From: a virus
Lineage: Duplodnaviria > Heunggongvirae > Uroviricota > Caudoviricetes
IMG/VR virus record: IMGVR_UViG_2724679236_000013
Location: 1 to 22,583 of that record
Strand: one strand, 5' to 3'
Length of the DNA stretch: 22,583 nt
In this document: piece after piece, positions 3,207 to 9,343 of the stretch
Layout: each line of letters starts with the position of its first letter
How positions within the stretch are numbered: position 1 is the first letter of the stretch
Program-made: the position numbers and the translations under genes
The notes under the pieces: model-generated
Databases searched by the model: none
Told to the model about the DNA's origin: nothing
Seen by the model: only the letters and a program-made list of their open reading frames with translations

Positions 3207-3438
3207 GTTGGTTTTTCTCCACGGATTTACTGACAACCGAAGCCCTGACTGTTCCCGCAGTTGGGGCTTCACTGTTTTGATTTCTTTGCCGCATCAAGCA
3301 TCACTTCTGAAAACGTGCGCTTGCCACTGAATACTCTTTCTCTTCTCAATTTTTCGTTCGTGCCAAATGATTCGCCATGAACAAAATTTGGTCTTAAAAT
3401 GGTAATCGCAATCTCTTTGACTACTGCATCCAAGCGAA

Positions 3439-3579: not shown

Positions 3580-3683
3580 TGCATCCTCCGTTGTATGTGG
3601 TACGCATACATAGTATTTAGGTACGCATTGATAGTCAATAGATACCTACATATCCTGTGGTAAAAATTATTCAGGATGCGCCG
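3580..3683. promoter_or_regulatory. Divergent promoter/operator region between arc-ant and the Mnt-like genes
   Basis: A 104-bp AT-rich spacer between divergent starts. GGTACGCAT occurs at 3599-3607 and 3620-3628 (21-bp spacing), and an inverted repeat TAGGTA (3618-3623) / TACCTA (3643-3648) is present. Position corresponds to P22 Pant/Pmnt with the Arc and Mnt operators. Confidence 0.45.
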
Positions 3684-3941
3684 ATGTCTGATCGTAAGTA
3701 CAAAAACCCTCAAGTGAATCTGAGGCTTCCTGTAGAGATAAAGGAACGTCTTATTGAACTGGCTGAGGCTAATTCTCGTTCATTAAATGCTGAGATGGTC
3801 GCAGCACTTGAAGCATGGACCGAAAAAAACAAACACATTCAAGCACTAGATCTTGCAACTATAGCATCACGATTGATAGATCTTGAGCATGATGTTGAGA
3901 AGTTGAAATGCATGTATGGCAACGATGAAAACAAAGGTTAG
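3684..3941 (+). CDS. Mnt-like ribbon-helix-helix repressor, 85 aa
   Basis: The N-terminus (NLRLPVEIKERLIELAEANSRSLNAEMVAAL) has the Arc/Mnt RHH signature and resembles P22 Mnt as I remember it. ATG at 3684 is preceded by AGGA; the ORF track's start at 3657 is a GTG without an obvious ribosome-binding site. Divergent from arc-ant, as mnt is in P22. Confidence 0.6.
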   Translation: MSDRKYKNPQVNLRLPVEIKERLIELAEANSRSLNAEMVAALEAWTEKNKHIQALDLATIASRLIDLEHDVEKLKCMYGNDENKG

Positions 3942-4182
3942 AGACATAGCCCCATATAGCGTAAGAATGCCAGATAGCCTCAAGCGCGACCTGACCATAA
4001 GAGCATCGAAAAACGGACGCTCATTAAATTCAGAAATAGTTATGATCTTGCAAGCCGCTATTGATGAAGAAAAATCACCAAGATCGATAGAAGGTTTTGC
4101 TCAACAAGAATCTGAAAAATTTAGGGAGGCTCTTCTTAAGACTCTCAGCAGCATGTACGGAGAAGATAAAAAACCCACCTGA
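3916..4182 (+). CDS. Second Mnt/Arc-like RHH protein (paralog of the upstream gene), 88 aa
   Basis: RHH-like N-terminus (VRMPDSLKRDLTIRASKNGRSLNSEIVMILQAA). Its C-terminus ends ...MYGEDKKPT, against ...MYGNDENKG in the upstream protein. Start is uncertain (ATG at 3916 or 3925, neither with a strong ribosome-binding site); it overlaps the upstream stop, suggesting translational coupling. Confidence 0.5.
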   Translation: MATMKTKVRDIAPYSVRMPDSLKRDLTIRASKNGRSLNSEIVMILQAAIDEEKSPRSIEGFAQQESEKFREALLKTLSSMYGEDKKPT

Positions 4183-4192
4183 CGGTGGGTTT
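4168..4192. terminator. Bidirectional rho-independent terminator between convergent genes
   Basis: AAAAAA-CCCACC-tgac-GGTGGG-TTT: a 6-bp GC-rich stem flanked by an A-run and a T-run. It overlaps the stop of the + strand RHH gene and sits directly beside the stop of the minus-strand toxin-like gene (4191). Confidence 0.55.
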
Positions 4193-4640
4193 AGTCAAAC
4201 ATAGTGTTTCTAAAGTCTCTCGCATACCCTGCTAACACTCTCATTCTATTATGATTGTTAGCAGACATGTGAGCTACAGGATGAAAAAGAGCAATCAATG
4301 AATACCTGTTCTCATCAAAAAGATTTTGTGCATAAACGAGAGCGGTATTGGATGTTTTATGCCACTGCAACTTTTGCGGTGTGCTGATATCTGTGCCATT
4401 TTTTATTGGCTCAAATTTATTTTCACCAATTGCTAAATGAAGGTGCATAAGGCCTGCATCTTCAATATCAGGAGGTCGATGATAAGAGGTGTCTCTGCCA
4501 AAATAGCTGGGCAACGTTCCCGTAGACTTGTAGATGATAAAATCATCTACAAGTGTTTGTTTTAAATCAGGAAACTCAACAAAAACCGGGGAGAAAAAAT
4601 AGTCAAAACTATCCTGATTATATTCCACGGTTACTTGCAT
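4191..4640 (-). CDS. Putative YafO-family toxin-like protein, 149 aa
   Basis: Motifs YFGRD...HLHLA...ALVYAQNLFDE...LIALFHP...NHNRM resemble E. coli YafO (ribosome-dependent mRNA interferase) as I recall it; not verified by search. GAGG ribosome-binding site; start lies 8 nt after the upstream gene's stop. AT-rich cargo DNA. Confidence 0.5.
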   Translation of the reverse strand: MQVTVEYNQDSFDYFFSPVFVEFPDLKQTLVDDFIIYKSTGTLPSYFGRDTSYHRPPDIEDAGLMHLHLAIGENKFEPIKNGTDISTPQKLQWHKTSNTALVYAQNLFDENRYSLIALFHPVAHMSANNHNRMRVLAGYARDFRNTMFD

Positions 4641-4648
4641 GTTTTACC

Positions 4649-5215
4649 TCAGTGGAAGTTACCAGAGTGAAACACACGAGTCCCGTGCTCAGCAAGCGCA
4701 CGCAAACCAGCCATATCTACGGAACTATCAAAAACAACCGGAACACATGAGCGTTGTTTAATAAGACTATTCAGGTTGGTTACGGCAGATCTGGCATCAG
4801 CAACAACGATATAGATATCTCTTGCGATCTCTTTAAAATCAGCAGAAGCTTCTTTGAATACCGATTTCATTGCCCCTTCAAGTCCTCTCAATTGATGCTC
4901 TATCAATCGAGACTTTTCTGGTTCAATGATAGACAACACATTGTCTACATTCTCATCGGTAGCGTTTGCAAGAACACGATAAGCGTATTTCAGCATTCGA
5001 GACAATTCTTTAATCGAAGACACCGCCTCATGAAGCTCATCATTAGCCCGTTCACTGCTGAATGAGGATTGATGGTAAGCGTGCTGAACGTTATCAGTAA
5101 CAACCACCTCACAACTGAACGCAGAAGCTTGCTGTAATAGCAAACCTATTGCGACTCCAGCTTTGGCAGCGTTCAAGCTAAACATTTCATCAATCCTATT
5201 AGTCTCATTGCTCAT
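4649..5215 (-). CDS. Hypothetical protein, 188 aa, translationally coupled upstream partner of the YafO-like ORF (candidate non-canonical antitoxin or regulator)
   Basis: Strong ribosome-binding site AAGGAGG 5 nt upstream of the ATG at 5215 (the ORF track's longer form starts at a TTG). No resemblance to YafN/DinJ/RelB or RHH antitoxins that I can recognise; no transmembrane segment evident. Confidence 0.6.
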   Translation of the reverse strand: MSNETNRIDEMFSLNAAKAGVAIGLLLQQASAFSCEVVVTDNVQHAYHQSSFSSERANDELHEAVSSIKELSRMLKYAYRVLANATDENVDNVLSIIEPEKSRLIEHQLRGLEGAMKSVFKEASADFKEIARDIYIVVADARSAVTNLNSLIKQRSCVPVVFDSSVDMAGLRALAEHGTRVFHSGNFH

Positions 5216-5390
5216 ACAAACCTCCTTCTTATCGGAGATTATCAATAGCTATGCATCCATTGAATACACGCTATGCGCAATAAGTTTACGTCACGTGATA
5301 TCATTATGCAACCACCGTTCTATCACCGACTAACTTTACTCCCACTCCTATACATCATCTGGTATCCTGCGCAAAACTAAGGAGGTTGGT
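5216..5390. promoter_or_regulatory. Divergent intergenic control region of the cargo island
   Basis: A 175-bp AT-rich spacer between divergent starts (5215 minus, 5391 plus). It contains overlapping 8-bp palindromes TCACGTGA (5291-5298) and TGATATCA (5296-5303), candidate operator sites. Confidence 0.4.
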
Positions 5391-5813
5391 GTGTTTGGTA
5401 TATTAAAGAAAAGCAAGATAAAAAAATTAAGGGCAGAACTCGCCGAAACACAAAAACTGGCTTCACATTTTTACAAAATGAAATACGACGCTGAAGAGCG
5501 TGCATTCGTTGAGTTATGCGATTTATCTATTCGTATGGGAGTAGAGCCAGATGTAGCGGCAAAAACTCAACAAGGCATTGATATACTTGCAGATGTTGTT
5601 TTAAACAGGCAATATGCGTTTTATCTAAACGAGAAGGCCATTCAGATTTACTCGCAAATCTTCCTCCTAGAAAAAAGAAGAGGAACTCACGATCGAGAAG
5701 AGTGGTTAAATGAAGTTGTTAAAAAATCTGGCTGGGAAGTTGTTTCATCAGAACTACCTCTTATTTGTGCTGATTTAATCGAAGAGGCAAAAGAGCGCCT
5801 ATCCGATGGCTAG
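5391..5813 (+). CDS. Hypothetical protein, 140 aa (cargo gene of unknown function)
   Basis: GTG start at 5391 preceded by AAGGAGG at 5-nt spacing. Divergent from the toxin-like operon and convergent on gp16; no recognisable domain. Confidence 0.55.
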   Translation: MFGILKKSKIKKLRAELAETQKLASHFYKMKYDAEERAFVELCDLSIRMGVEPDVAAKTQQGIDILADVVLNRQYAFYLNEKAIQIYSQIFLLEKRRGTHDREEWLNEVVKKSGWEVVSSELPLICADLIEEAKERLSDG

Positions 5814-5837
5814 ACGAATCCATCCGTGGATTACTAA

Positions 5838-7994
5838 TTACTCCTGTGCCATTCCGCTTAGCGATGCCACAATTCCAGCTCTTGCTAAACGCTGGAACTC
5901 TTCGTTTCCTAGTGCCTCGCGTATTGCCTTTACGGCGGCCTTATTTGCCATAAATCTGCGTTCCGCCGCCGCTAATGCACCATCACTTGCCCCAACCTTA
6001 ACTGCCTTTGTTGCCTCTTGAACAGCCTTTTCAATAGCGTAACGACCACTGCGGGATGCAGCTAACTTTTCTATCGTCCCTTTAGCTATAGATCCAGAAA
6101 CAGCCCCTACAACACCGCCAACAATCCCTCCACCAGTAGTACCAACAATAGCCCCTGATGTTGAATTGCCTATTGCATTGAGAACTGTCATGACAGCTTT
6201 TGGCAGTCCTTGCTCAAGAGAGTTAATTGCCGGTATAGAGCGCCCCGTATGCTCTACATATCGCAGTGGTCTGGTTGCTGCTCTGGCAAGGTCGCTGTAT
6301 GCCCTAGCAATCTTACCCATTTCTGGCGAGTGCCTACTAATGGCAGTAATGTTCTGCGGCGTAAGGATCGACGCTATATGGAATACGCCAGCAGACTCTG
6401 ATTTACCGCCACGCACCCCTTGCGATACCGCATCTTGTAATATTGATGCAATTGCAGGAGATCGCTCAGACTCTGGCAGCGCGCCAATAATCTGATGAAA
6501 CTTTCCTGTCCCACTTTTTGATGAATTTTGCAAGGCTTTAATACCATCAGTGACTAACTGATCAGTTGCAAGGTTTCTAAACGCTGCTTCAGCCTGTTCT
6601 TGTGCTGTAAATCTTGCTTTTGACAGATCATTAGCTTTTTGCCAGTCATCAAGAAAACCGCCATTTTGAGCCATTATGCGCATATCTTCCGTTGCTGCAT
6701 CACGAAGCTCCGCCATGCGCCTTGCCGTATTTGCCTCACCAGACCTTATATACTTCTGCTCAGCGTCAGCAAGTTTACTTCGCCATGCCTTCATGGCATC
6801 AAACGTGATTCCTTTTTTACCAGTTTTAGCATAAGCAGATGCAAATTGTTTCATCTCAGGAGTTAGCGGCATGCCAGCCAAAATATCACCCTGAATTGTA
6901 GCGTTCAGGTTTGACATTCTGGCCTTTGCGTCAGGCATCGTGGAGCGGACGCTATCCCATGCTGCCTTTTCTGAGTTCTTCATTTTATCAATACTTGCTA
7001 AAACCCTTTGTTTTATGGCTGCACTTTTTTCTGATGCAGATCCAGCCTCAGCACCAAGTTCATCAAGTGCTGAGTGGAATTTCGACTGTATTTCACTAAA
7101 AGCCCTAGTATGTGCATCCTGAACAATTCCTGGTTCGGATGCCAATATCCCTTCGGCTTGTGCAATTCCACGACTTCCAGATCGCATTCCTGGTGTTAAT
7201 GCGTTTATATCAATTCCAGCAGACTCAGCCGCTTTTGCTACATCTTCGGACACATTAGCGGCCTGACTGGCAATTGACTGACGCCCAGCACCTGACTTTG
7301 CCATCCTGGAAACATCATTAGCAGAATTCAGTGCTGCACCACCAAGAGCCTGTGAAACCCTTGGCGCAATAACGCGCCCGACACCTGAAAGAACGCCTTG
7401 AGCACCAATATTGATACCACCGTTAACGGCAGCATTTTGTGCAAAATCACCCTCCTGATTTGCAGCATCAGCAAGAGAACCGGCAATCATGTTTCCTGCG
7501 GAACCGATGTCTCCTGCGAGCTTTGCTGGCGCTCCAGCAGCTTTTGCTGCTGTGCCAATTGGCAGGAGATACCCACCAATTGTTTCACCGGCTTGCGCGT
7601 AAGGGTCTGTCGGTCGATCGACTGGACGATAGACATCATCCAAAACCTTGGGGCCACCAAGCCCCTGGCTGATTGCATTAATCAGACTTGCGCCACCCTG
7701 CAATACGTCAAATGGTATGTTTACCAGACCACGACCAGCCTGTTCTGCAATTTGCCCTGCACTTTGACCACCTGTGAGCCAATCACCAGCTTGTTGCATC
7801 AATGATGGTTCTTCTTTCTGCTGCTGAGGTGGAGGGTATGCTGCATAAAACTGATCTCTTGCTTCAGCCCATTTGTCACCAGCCTTAGGGGCAACAACCT
7901 CATCAAAATATTGCGCTTGAGCCTGTGCTTTCTGTTCTTCAGTTAACGCCTGATACTGTGGAGAAGCGATAACATCTTTCCATGCTTTAGCCAT
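5838..7994 (-). CDS. Ejection (injection) protein, P22 gp16 family, 718 aa
   Basis: Synteny: last of the gp7/gp20/gp16 trio before the immunity/cargo region. Ala/Gly/Gln-rich composition typical of ejection proteins. Its start overlaps the gp20 stop (TAATG). Confidence 0.7.
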
Positions 7995-9343
7995 TAATCA
8001 CCCCATAAAGACGAGAAACCGGACTTATTGCTGTCGCTTCCTGATTTTCGCTCACTAACATATGTGTCATAACCTGATGAACTATATCCCATTGATTCAG
8101 CCTCCCTTGCTGCAACCTTTTGAAATACAGAATATTGCGATCGGATTTCAGATAACTGTTTTCTGACGACCTCTTCAGGCTGTGTTATATCGAGTTTCGC
8201 GATAAGGTTTTCCAGTTTTTGTCCTTCAGCATTGGAGAGGCTACCCATACCTCGCATAGTCTGCACGTTCTGGACAAACGCACCCGACTTTAATTCTTCT
8301 ATCGCATTACGGTTTGCAAGCCCTTCAGCACTTGTGAAGCCATCTATATTTCTTCCTTCGAAGCGACCGATACCTTCAAGCTCCTTCTTACCAAGCAAAG
8401 AATCTATTTTCTCTATCCCTCGCTCACCAGTAATCAACGCATTGTTGTAATTATTGTTGCCATCAAGCCATCTCTTAGCCTGAGACATTCTGGCTGACGT
8501 TGCAGCTTTACCGGTTAGCGGATCAATTCCCGTCGCTGCTATCTGTGAGTTAAGAGACAAAACATCCATATCCTGAAGTTGTCCTGCTCTTTCAAGGGCC
8601 GCCTGTGACTGCTTAAACACATACTTGTCGTGATTCAGTCTTGCCATTTGAGCCTTATAGGAAAGATCCTGCCCCCTAATAGCCCTCGCATTCGTCATGT
8701 CATTATTGCGAATGGTTTCGTTAATTCTTTGCTGCTCCTGCTGGCGACCAACCATCTTATCCTGAACAGCAAAAGCCTTTTCTGGCCCAAGTGCACCGAG
8801 AGACATAGTAGTCAGCATGTGTGATAGCTGCTCTGGATTCTGGATACCTGTCTGAATCATCCAGTCAGCATTAGCACCAACGCGATTTAACCTGTCCTTG
8901 TTGTCAGTAATGAATTTACTGTAGGCTTCCGGTCCCTGAGAAAGAGCGACGTTAGCCCTCATGGCTAAATCGCCCATATCGTTGCGTTGCTGCTCATTAA
9001 GACCGGAAAACGCCTGTTGTGCCTGCGCAACAAATGCTGGATTTTCCTTGGCAAACTTAAATAGTCCCGATGGATCACCAGAAGCCCATGCATCAGCATG
9101 AACCTTATTGAACGCATTAATCGCTTTCTGTTGCTGTTCCTGCTTATAAATATCAGCAGCCCCAGCCAGACCACGTAACGCGGTCAGACCAACGTTATTT
9201 GCACCTGATCGAGCCAGTTCATTGTTTTCGCGGATCAGACCAAGCGTTGCGTTAATGTCGCTTGCCTTTGGCGCATTCTCATTTTGCGCACCAATTCCAG
9301 CCAGAAAACCACCAGAATTAATACCCTGTTGCCAAGTAGCCAT
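7994..9343 (-). CDS. Ejection protein, P22 gp20 family, 449 aa
   Basis: Synteny between the gp7 and gp16 homologs; size close to P22 gp20; tight operon packing. Confidence 0.7.

What the first reader, a model, noticed from the sequence alone, without database searches (positions are those of the whole stretch)
5391..5813. Divergently transcribed 140-aa unknown gene completing the cargo island
A well-signalled gene (AAGGAGG, GTG start) with no recognisable domain lies divergent to the toxin-like operon and convergent on the ejection gene. Genes at this position in P22-like phages are typically host-interaction, exclusion or defence functions. It may be a third component or regulator of the adjacent module, or an independent exclusion factor.
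Basis: inference. Interest (0 to 1): 0.5.

Follow-up and report, generated by a model that had tools for sequence, protein, structure and literature searches.

The report
Soluble unknown gene in sieA slot
This is a real, conserved 140-amino-acid gene of unknown function sitting in the exact slot where P22-like prophages normally carry their membrane-bound "keep other phages out" gene (sieA); it travels independently of the neighbouring toxin pair and is the only soluble protein seen among the dozen unrelated genes that use that slot.

Summary
The ORF is real: 5391-5813 (+), GTG start, AAGGAGG at 5379-5385, divergent from the 198-aa/YafO pair and 24 nt from the convergent ejection gene 16. It is under purifying selection (dN/dS about 0.07-0.10) and has same-length homologs at 32-52% identity. 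The AlphaFold2 model is confident (pLDDT 94.6), all-helical, with no membrane segment.

Main result: the 34 nt up to and including the GTG (5360-5393) are about 97% identical to the leader and start codon of P22 sieA and HK620 hkcB. In 119 viral contigs this leader precedes 12 unrelated ORF families, nearly always beside gene 16. Eleven have a membrane segment or signal peptide; this is the only soluble one.

The gene does not belong to the YafO pair. The identical protein sits next to at least five different left neighbours, and many E. coli genomes carry the same YafO pair and leader with a different gene after the GTG.

Distant homologs lie in a mnt-X-sieA arrangement in Morganella-type prophages and next to a PARIS system in a P2-like contig.

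Best reading: a stand-alone, prophage-expressed accessory cassette, probably an anti-phage factor acting in the cytoplasm. The function is inferred, not shown.

The parts
5360..5393 (+). Conserved 34-nt 'sieA-type' leader plus start codon: TGGTATCCTGCGCAAAACTAAGGAGGTTGGTGTG. It holds a TGnTATCCT extended -10-like element (5360-5368; inference only), the Shine-Dalgarno AAGGAGG (5379-5385) and the GTG start (5391-5393). It is the left mosaic junction of the cassette.
   Evidence: About 97% identical to the sequence immediately before and including the start of P22 sieA (L012 2501-2535), which begins at the last base of P22's annotated PsieA promoter (2471-2501). Also matches HK620 hkcB and 69 phage records. 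Found in 460 of 5,426 complete E. coli genomes. Matches from ST95/APEC-type genomes run through 5300-5393 at 100% and stop at the start codon. The extended -10 reading comes from my own scan.
5391..5813 (+). CDS of 'X': a 140-aa soluble, all-alpha protein of an uncharacterised family. Most conserved block: residues 53-85, AAKTxxGxxILxxVVLNRQYAFYLNExAIQ. N-terminal Met-Phe is invariant.
   Evidence: ORF. dN/dS 0.07-0.10. Family alignments A1/A3. AF2 pLDDT 94.6, helices 2-29, 31-49, 53-56, 60-95, 102-113, 115-125, 127-139. No hydrophobic segment: Kyte-Doolittle 19-residue maximum 0.75 against 2.2-2.6 for the SieA proteins. No family or fold match. GC 38% against 45-52% in gene 16.
5814..5837 (.). 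24-nt spacer between the convergent stop codons of X and gene 16, with a weak 6-bp hairpin (AATCCA tccg TGGATT, 5817-5832). It is the right junction of the cassette.
   Evidence: Sequence. Folding energy -5.2 kcal/mol, z = -0.49, so not distinguishable from shuffles. No terminator-like site was called there.
5838..7994 (-). Gene 16 (ejection/DNA-transfer protein): the positional anchor of the slot, context only.
   Evidence: tblastn and annotation of homologous loci. Pfam Phage_P22_gp16 on the equivalent gene of L161. 105 of 116 evaluable leader cassettes in IMG/VR are followed within 200 nt (median 19) by a convergent long ORF of median 644 aa.

Best explanation
X is a self-contained accessory ('moron') cassette in the sieA slot of a P22-like (Lederbergvirus-type) prophage. 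Shown: the slot lies between ejection gene 16 and the mnt/arc/ant immunity-I genes. Shown: the slot has a conserved 34-nt leader carrying the ribosome-binding site and GTG start, behind which recombination has placed at least 12 unrelated ORF families. X is one of them and moves independently of everything to its left, including the YafO pair. Shown (by prediction): X encodes a compact all-helical protein with no membrane anchor or signal peptide, under purifying selection, with no partner gene that is constant across contexts. Inferred: like sieA, X is transcribed on the strand opposite to the late operon. Transcription may start at the TGnTATCCT element in the leader, or come from the mnt promoter where X lies in the mnt operon, so X would be made in the lysogen. 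Inferred, and least secure: X protects the lysogen against incoming phage. It would act alone from the cytoplasmic side, by binding a phage or host protein, for example the cytoplasmic end of the gp7/gp20/gp16 DNA-delivery conduit or an early phage product. It would not act as a membrane plug like SieA. My confidence is about 0.9 for 'independent cassette in the sieA slot, not part of the YafO module' and about 0.4 for 'anti-phage factor'. The figure below is for the whole statement.
For: Position and leader: 97% identity of 5360-5394 to the P22 sieA leader and start. Cassette behaviour: 12 unrelated families follow the exact leader in 119 IMG/VR contigs, with X at 7 of 119. 105 of 116 lie next to a convergent gene-16-like ORF. 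One contig (L116) carries two tandem leaders with different cassettes. Independence: there are at least 7 kinds of left neighbour, and the same YafO pair occurs with another cassette. Real gene. Soluble. Defence-type neighbourhoods elsewhere: a distant homolog lies between gpA and an AriA/AriB (PARIS) pair, upstream of portal and terminase, in a P2-like contig. Another is inserted antisense among tail genes of a different phage. In Morganella-type prophages the order is mnt, X, a SieA type-C-like protein, then convergent gene 16, with 19- and 10-nt gaps. Literature: SieA is a prophage-expressed exclusion protein at this locus, and only 22 of 66 P22-like phages carry it (PMC10883804). The region is a fast-changing moron (PMC2629481). 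Most unknown genes tested from P4 hotspots were defensive (PMC13586616).
Confidence: 0.45

Rival explanations
1. X is a third component, antitoxin or regulator of the adjacent 198-aa/YafO toxin module.
For: Physical adjacency and a shared 145-nt divergent intergenic region in the window. In MS14385-type prophages a different YafO-family pair lies directly upstream on the same strand, 22 nt away.
Against: None of 18 other X-bearing loci has the window's pair. The identical X protein occurs beside Panacea, P63C, hkcC-like or small ORFs. The same pair with the same leader is followed by a 116-aa membrane ORF in APEC O1/ST95-type genomes. X occurs in P2-like and other phages with no YafO nearby. 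X shows no similarity to YafN, RelB or other antitoxin families.
Confidence: 0.03
2. X is a lysogenic-conversion or fitness moron that acts on host physiology (stress, envelope, virulence) and has no anti-phage role.
For: Morons often carry host-directed functions. X is found in pathogenic lineages such as ST131 and porcine ETEC UMNK88. There is no match to known defence proteins. X is soluble, unlike the exclusion-type envelope proteins that share the slot.
Against: The slot and leader are those of a proven exclusion gene (PMC10883804). A homolog sits in a P2-like defence hotspot beside PARIS. The family is seen almost only inside phage genomes of several types rather than in chromosomal islands (L039, beside chromosomal-type genes at a contig end, was not resolved).
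Confidence: 0.2
3. X serves the prophage's own life cycle. It might modulate its ejection proteins or DNA delivery, the immI (Mnt/Arc/Ant) switch or induction. Its convergent transcription might also tune expression of gene 16 and the tailspike.
For: Constant adjacency and convergence with gene 16 in P22-like contexts, with no evident terminator between the two genes. X is placed directly after mnt in Morganella-type prophages. The ant moron is reported to influence read-through into the tailspike gene (PMC2629481).
Against: X occurs with gene 16 types ranging from 99% identity to undetectable by tblastn and in prophages without ant (L014, L163). It also occurs in phages with no gene 16 at all (L029, L031). 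Most P22-like phages lack X. A protein under strong purifying selection is not needed for a purely transcriptional effect.
Confidence: 0.12
4. X is a counter-defence (anti-defence) protein that the phage uses against host immune systems.
For: It is a small helical protein with no enzymatic motif, typical of inhibitor proteins. Defence and anti-defence genes can share hotspots; a homolog lies beside PARIS.
Against: Its orientation is antisense to the late operon, and it uses the leader of a prophage-expressed gene, which suits expression in the lysogen rather than early in infection. As far as I know (own knowledge), counter-defence genes of P22-like phages lie in the early operons. X is near-neutral (pI about 5.8), not a strongly acidic DNA mimic.
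Confidence: 0.08

Closest known systems
P22 SieA (superinfection exclusion protein A; types A, B and C; Leavitt et al. 2024, PMC10883804)
   Same: Same genomic slot, between gene 16 and mnt and convergent with gene 16. Same 34-nt leader, Shine-Dalgarno and GTG (about 97% identity). Similar size class (140 vs 164 aa). Same orientation opposite to the late operon.
   Different: No sequence similarity: BLASTP against the SieA-A cassette representative and a Morganella SieA-C-like protein gave nothing with E<1, and the family profile scores them at or below zero bits. X lacks the FxRYPxEAxxFNK motif and has no transmembrane helices, where SieA has several. In Morganella-type prophages X is present together with a SieA type-C-like gene.
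HK620 HkcB and the other ORF families that follow the same leader
   Same: Alternative occupants of the same slot behind the same leader. All are short (62-164 aa). All except SieA have unknown function.
   Different: All 11 other families have an N-terminal or internal hydrophobic segment or a signal peptide; X has none. X has no detectable homology to any of them.
'Ant moron' of P22-like phages (Villafane et al. 2008, PMC2629481) and the moron concept
   Same: X lies inside this hyper-variable, non-morphogenetic insertion between genes 16 and 9. It has lower GC than the flanking genes and is present or absent among otherwise syntenic prophages.
   Different: I found no mention of the X family in the papers I read on this region or in full-text searches. 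I also did not find a description of the conserved leader as a cassette-exchange joint serving at least 12 families, but the library is incomplete.
P2-like phage defence hotspot between gpA and the portal gene (tin/old position; Rousset et al. 2022, cited from memory; PMC13586616)
   Same: A 39%-identical homolog of X sits directly after gpA and next to an AriA/AriB (PARIS) pair, before portal and terminase, in a P2-like contig.
   Different: This is one contig only. X is not related to Tin, Old or any PADLOC model. The hotspot placement itself is my reading of the gene order.
Pfam DUF6435
   Same: Weak resemblance of the N-terminal 26 residues (MFGxxKK...), E=0.016.
   Different: Below the gathering score (15.7 vs 26.9 bits). 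Only 1 of 11 family members gives the hit. DUF6435 is itself uncharacterised and only 53 positions long.

Membership tests
SieA superinfection-exclusion family (types A/B/C) | Sequence homology to SieA, including the conserved cytoplasmic motif FxRYPxEAxxFNK | tested here: not met
   BLASTP against the SieA-A cassette representative and a Morganella SieA-C-like protein gave nothing with E<1; the family profile scores -0.9 and -2.4 bits. The motif search was run on the P22 and SW4848 SieA proteins and found it there; reading X's sequence shows no such motif. Type B was not compared.
SieA superinfection-exclusion family (types A/B/C) | Inner-membrane protein with several transmembrane helices | tested here: not met
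   Kyte-Doolittle 19-residue maximum is 0.75 for X against 2.60 for P22 SieA. The AF2 model is a soluble helical bundle.
SieA superinfection-exclusion family (types A/B/C) | Located between the gene 16 and gene 9 homologs of a P22-like prophage, next to gene 16 | tested here: met
SieA superinfection-exclusion family (types A/B/C) | Blocks DNA injection by P22-like phages; escape mutations map to gp16/gp20 | not testable with these tools
   Needs phage challenge, K+ efflux or DNA-entry assays.
Type II toxin-antitoxin module with YafO toxin (X as antitoxin or third component) | Co-transcribed with the toxin gene and conserved in co-occurrence with it | tested here: not met
   X is divergent from the pair in the window. 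0 of 18 other X-bearing loci carry this pair. The pair occurs with other cassettes. The identical X protein has at least 5 different neighbours.
Type II toxin-antitoxin module with YafO toxin (X as antitoxin or third component) | Similarity to known antitoxin folds (YafN/RelB/Phd, RHH, HTH) | tested here: not met
Phage moron (independently expressed insert in a phage operon) | Present or absent among otherwise syntenic relatives; not needed for morphogenesis | tested here: met
   The leader slot occurs in 460 complete E. coli genomes and X in 30 of them. There are 12 alternative families. X is absent from all deposited phage genomes.
Phage moron (independently expressed insert in a phage operon) | Own promoter and terminator | tested here: inconclusive
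   No consensus sigma-70 site or terminator was found. There is only a TGnTATCCT extended -10-like element inside the conserved leader. The 3' hairpin is not significant. P22's annotated PsieA upstream part is not conserved here.
Phage moron (independently expressed insert in a phage operon) | Base composition different from the flanking genes | tested here: met
   GC 0.38 at 5401-5800 against 0.45-0.52 in gene 16.
Known anti-phage defence systems (PADLOC-DB v2) | Match to a model of a known or candidate defence protein | tested here: not met
   The window protein has no PADLOC hit; across all 11 family members the best E-values are 0.025-0.026, in one member each.

The most novel reading that the evidence does not exclude
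X is the founding member of a new single-protein, cytoplasmic superinfection-exclusion or defence mechanism carried in the sieA cassette slot. It would be the first soluble counterpart of the membrane protein SieA, stopping incoming phage from the inside, for example by binding the cytoplasmic end of the gp7/gp20/gp16 conduit or an early phage product. The 34-nt leader would then be a portable expression-and-recombination joint that lets P22-like prophages swap at least 12 unrelated exclusion cassettes.
Probability: 0.3. Interest if true: 0.6.

Novelty: new variant of a known kind. Interest (0 to 1): 0.42.

Why it matters
The region next to the ejection-protein genes of P22-like prophages is where the one well-studied injection-blocking protein, SieA, is encoded. 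Leavitt et al. report sieA in only 22 of 66 sequenced P22-like phages, and I found no account of what fills the position in the rest.

This analysis shows that the position is a cassette slot with a shared leader and at least a dozen unrelated occupants. It singles out X as the only soluble one.

If X excludes phage, its mechanism must differ from SieA's. It would be an easy, single-gene entry point to that mechanism. It is carried by clinically important lineages such as ST131.

If X does not exclude phage, that shows the slot is not devoted to exclusion.

Either way, the finding removes X from the YafO-like toxin module, which simplifies the interpretation of that module.

Tried and rejected
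**Family libraries.** Pfam, PHROGs, NCBIfam and PADLOC were run on X and on all 11 members of alignment A1. They gave only a sub-threshold DUF6435 hit.

**Structure comparisons.**
- A PDB sequence-profile search gave nothing meaningful.
- Foldseek against PDB with the single-sequence model gave E of 0.3 or worse.
- Foldseek against BFVD gave E of 0.49 or worse.
- The afdb50 library was not available.

**Sequence searches.**
- tblastn against 50,697 phage records and 72,556 plasmids gave no hit.
- An exhaustive phmmer search of 1.84 billion representatives found 12 proteins. One of them, P0013, is a spurious eukaryotic repeat protein, and P0009 is a fragment of X.
- Profile searches with 11 and with 25 sequences found no relatives beyond the family, even at E up to 1.

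**Ideas rejected.**
- HEPN-like: no Rx4-6H motif with a conserved His (my reading of the alignment).
- Helix-turn-helix: the conserved A...G segment sits at the start of a 36-residue helix.
- ESCRT-III/PspA-like: only weak generic hits.
- DNA mimic: pI about 5.8.
- Intrinsic terminator after X: hairpin z = -0.49.
- Consensus promoter upstream of X: none found.

**Literature.** Searches for the accession, hkcB, 'ant moron' and P22-like defence hotspots found no mention of this family.

Full report
**1.

The ORF listing and the raw sequence show an ORF at 5391-5813 on the + strand. It is 140 codons long and starts at the first start codon (GTG) after an in-frame stop. AAGGAGG at 5379-5385 lies 5 nt upstream.

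To its left, on the other strand, lie a 198-aa ORF (4649-5245, phrog_8416, no Pfam family) and a YafO-family toxin (4191-4640, Pfam E=3.4e-22). To its right, 24 nt away and convergent, is the 718-aa ejection gene 16, followed by genes 20, 7 and 14.

The wider window is a P22-like prophage. It carries a tailspike, ant, arc, sar RNA (Rfam 87.7 bits at 3207-3273) and two Arc/Mnt-family genes.

X has no hit in Pfam, PHROGs, NCBIfam or PADLOC, apart from a sub-threshold DUF6435 match to residues 1-26.

'Well-signalled' applies to translation only. No consensus promoter or terminator was found, and the small hairpin after the stop is no better than shuffled sequence.

**2. It is a real gene**

- Eight nucleotide alleles from E. 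coli prophages fall into two groups. They differ at about 20 synonymous and only 6-9 non-synonymous sites, giving dN/dS 0.07-0.10 at dS about 0.28.
- An exhaustive phmmer search of 1.84 billion cluster representatives found ten genuine full-length relatives of 138-146 aa at 33-49% identity, plus one fragment of X and one spurious repeat protein.
- Viral and genome contigs add more relatives.
- The family alignment has invariant M1, F2, A56, G62, L71, R73, E81, I84, Q85, W105 and V110. The most conserved block is residues 53-85, AAKTxxGxxILxxVVLNRQYAFYLNExAIQ.
- With this alignment AlphaFold2 gives pLDDT 94.6 and pTM 0.82. The model is an all-helical protein with long helices at 2-49 (kinked near residue 30) and 60-95 and three shorter C-terminal helices.
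- There is no hydrophobic segment. The pI is about 5.8.

**3. What the locus is**

The 34 nt from 5360 to 5393, TGGTATCCTGCGCAAAACTAAGGAGGTTGGTGTG, are about 97% identical to the sequence that precedes and includes the start codon of P22 sieA. In P22 this sequence begins at the last base of the annotated PsieA promoter.

The same leader precedes three other genes that I examined:
- HK620 hkcB;
- a SieA type-A gene in E. coli SW4848;
- a 116-aa multi-pass membrane ORF in APEC O1.

The leader is present in 460 of 5,426 complete E. coli genomes. X is present in 30 of them.

The ORF that starts at the leader's GTG falls into 12 families with no detectable similarity to one another:

| Family | Contigs |
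|---|---|
| 129-aa secreted protein | 22 |
| HkcB-like | 22 |
| 109-aa anchor plus coiled coil | 13 |
| SieA type A | 12 |
| 62-aa membrane protein | 11 |
| 75-aa membrane protein | 9 |
| X | 7 |
| 106-aa protein with N-terminal anchor | 7 |
| 149-aa protein with membrane anchor | 5 |
| 116-aa multi-pass membrane protein | 5 |
| 99-aa protein with signal peptide | 4 |
| 68-aa protein with signal peptide | 2 |

In 105 of 116 evaluable cases a long convergent ORF (median 644 aa) ends within 200 nt, with a median gap of 19 nt. One contig (L116) has two leaders in tandem with different cassettes.

X is the only family without a hydrophobic segment or signal peptide. It is not homologous to any of the others or to SieA type C.

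The region as a whole is the 'ant moron' of Villafane et al. (PMC2629481). SieA biology is described by Leavitt et al. (PMC10883804). [quoted passage not shown] Escape mutations map to gp16 and gp20. There are three SieA types, and only 22 of 66 P22-like phages carry the gene.

**4. X is independent of the YafO pair**

In annotated E. coli genomes the gene left of X varies:
- a PIN-domain pair in ST131;
- a Panacea-domain gene in UMNK88;
- an XhlA-like gene;
- a P63C gene;
- a different YafO-family pair on the same strand as X in MS14385.

Across 18 X-bearing loci there are seven kinds of left neighbour. None of these loci has the window's pair.

Even the protein identical to the window's is found beside Panacea, P63C, hkcC-like or small ORFs. 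It is also found beside the YafO pair, in draft assembly GCA_027566315.1, which has the window's arrangement.

Conversely, many ST95/APEC-type genomes match the window at 99-100% across the YafO pair. The match runs exactly up to 5393, the last base of the GTG, and then diverges into another cassette. No complete E. coli genome holds the window's combination.

The crossover therefore lies in the leader, and X and the pair assort freely.

**5. Contexts of distant homologs**

- Citrobacter, L013: same slot, same SD and GTG.
- Morganella-type prophages: the order is mnt, X, a 195-aa protein, then convergent gene 16, with 19- and 10-nt gaps. The 195-aa protein is SieA-like (27% identity over 100 residues to P22 SieA, E=1.6e-8; NRYPGEA motif; several hydrophobic segments). 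This fits the type C that Leavitt et al. report in Morganella, Providencia and Proteus. X can therefore accompany sieA, not only replace it.
- C. amalonaticus: X lies within the same moron but not next to gene 16.
- A P2-like contig, L029: gpA nickase, X, AriB/AriA (PARIS; PADLOC E=5e-14 and 4e-31), portal, terminase. This corresponds to the tin/old hotspot position.
- Two contigs (L031, L032): X lies antisense next to a tape-measure gene; in L031 it sits between tail-operon ORFs.

No partner gene is constant across these contexts.

X is absent from deposited phage genomes and from plasmids. Every source names it 'hypothetical protein'. It occurs in Escherichia, Salmonella enterica and E. albertii, and, as distant relatives, in Citrobacter and Morganella.

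**6. Mechanism**

Shown:
- X occupies a cassette position behind the sieA-type leader;
- it assorts independently of its neighbours;
- it is soluble and helical by confident prediction;
- it is under purifying selection;
- it is confined to temperate-phage accessory sites.

Inferred:
- X is expressed in the lysogen. It shares the leader of a prophage-expressed gene. That leader contains TGGTATCCT, which fits an extended -10 element. In Morganella-type prophages X lies immediately downstream of mnt, which P22 expresses in the lysogen.
- X has an anti-phage role, suggested by the slot it occupies and by the PARIS-adjacent homolog.

Most speculative: X acts alone in the cytoplasm by binding a phage or host protein. 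Nothing identifies the target.

I put about 0.9 on 'independent cassette in the sieA slot' and about 0.4 on 'anti-phage factor'. The rivals are listed separately: a host-directed moron, phage self-regulation, counter-defence, and a YafO-module component.

**7. Novelty and score**

The kind of element is known: a moron or exclusion cassette in the ant moron of P22-like prophages. The protein family is uncharacterised, has no fold or sequence relative, and is atypical for its slot because it is soluble.

I did not find the leader-defined cassette slot with at least 12 families described in the papers I could search, but the library is incomplete.

The finding is a moderately interesting, testable lead rather than a surprise. 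Interest is 0.42.

Noticed in passing
L116 2340-2372 and 4105-4137 (IMGVR_UViG_2545824644_000015): Two copies of the 33-nt sieA-type leader lie in tandem on one strand. The first precedes a 129-aa secreted-protein cassette. The second precedes the 149-aa family (its ORF runs off the locus end). A P63C-like gene lies between them on the other strand. This suggests the leader acts as a recombination joint and that slots can be duplicated.
   Followed up: partly
window 5300-5393 versus ST95/APEC O1-type E. coli genomes (e.g. L008): Many complete genomes match the window at 99-100% across the YafO pair and intergenic region, exactly up to the GTG at 5391-5393. They then diverge into a 116-aa multi-pass membrane ORF. 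RefSeq annotates that ORF from an internal ATG (109 aa) rather than from the leader's GTG.
   Followed up: partly
window 4191-5245 (-); L005 4991-5994 (+): The YafO-family toxin is paired with an upstream 198-aa protein (phrog_8416) that has no Pfam, NCBIfam or PADLOC match, not with a YafN-like antitoxin. MS14385-type prophages carry a different 199-aa + YafO-family pair (not detected by tblastn with the window's pair) in the opposite orientation at the same place.
   Followed up: partly
window 3657-3941 (+) and 3916-4182 (+): Two consecutive, overlapping Arc/Mnt-family ribbon-helix-helix genes lie on the mnt strand. P22 has a single mnt there. The second is 100% identical to the single mnt-like protein of Ec15103 and phage 611R6.
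   Followed up: no
window 4171-4192: A strong hairpin (9 pairs, 5 G-C) with a T-run on the - strand lies between the end of the second RHH gene and the end of the YafO gene. It is a likely terminator for the YafO operon and may also stop mnt-strand transcription.
   Followed up: no
window 3207-3273 (+): A canonical sar antisense RNA (Rfam RF00262, 87.7 bits) overlaps the start of ant, so the immI circuit looks intact.
   Followed up: yes
L035/L036/L040/L041 about 6731-8020 (Morganella-type prophages): A compact arrangement of mnt, an X homolog and a 195-aa SieA type-C-like membrane protein lies convergent with gene 16. The gaps are 19 and 10 nt.
   Followed up: partly
L029 1415-9834: P2-like contig with the order gpA nickase, X homolog, AriB/AriA (PARIS), portal, terminase.
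   Followed up: partly
L011 4032-4442 (E. coli CH468) and L001 9164-10333 (AZ146): Signs of prophage decay around X. In CH468 the match covers 137 of X's 140 residues and then ends, the stretch is unannotated, and a gp4 remnant and repressor genes follow in place of gene 16. In ST131 AZ146 an ISEc52 element interrupts gene 20.
   Followed up: no
window about 5421-5427 (A7 run) and 5672-5677 (A6 run) inside X: Homopolymer A runs inside the CDS. Several database fragments (P0003, P0009, P0022) look like frameshifted or truncated copies broken near these runs. They are probably assembly errors, but phase-variable expression was not excluded.
   Followed up: no
L007 6149-6553, L009 3963-4367; P0002: Some annotations start the slot gene at an upstream ATG, giving 134-aa or 165-aa products. 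The added N-terminus (MLALQPRYSNYTLSSGIL.KTKEVGV) is just the translated leader and is probably a start-site mis-call.
   Followed up: partly
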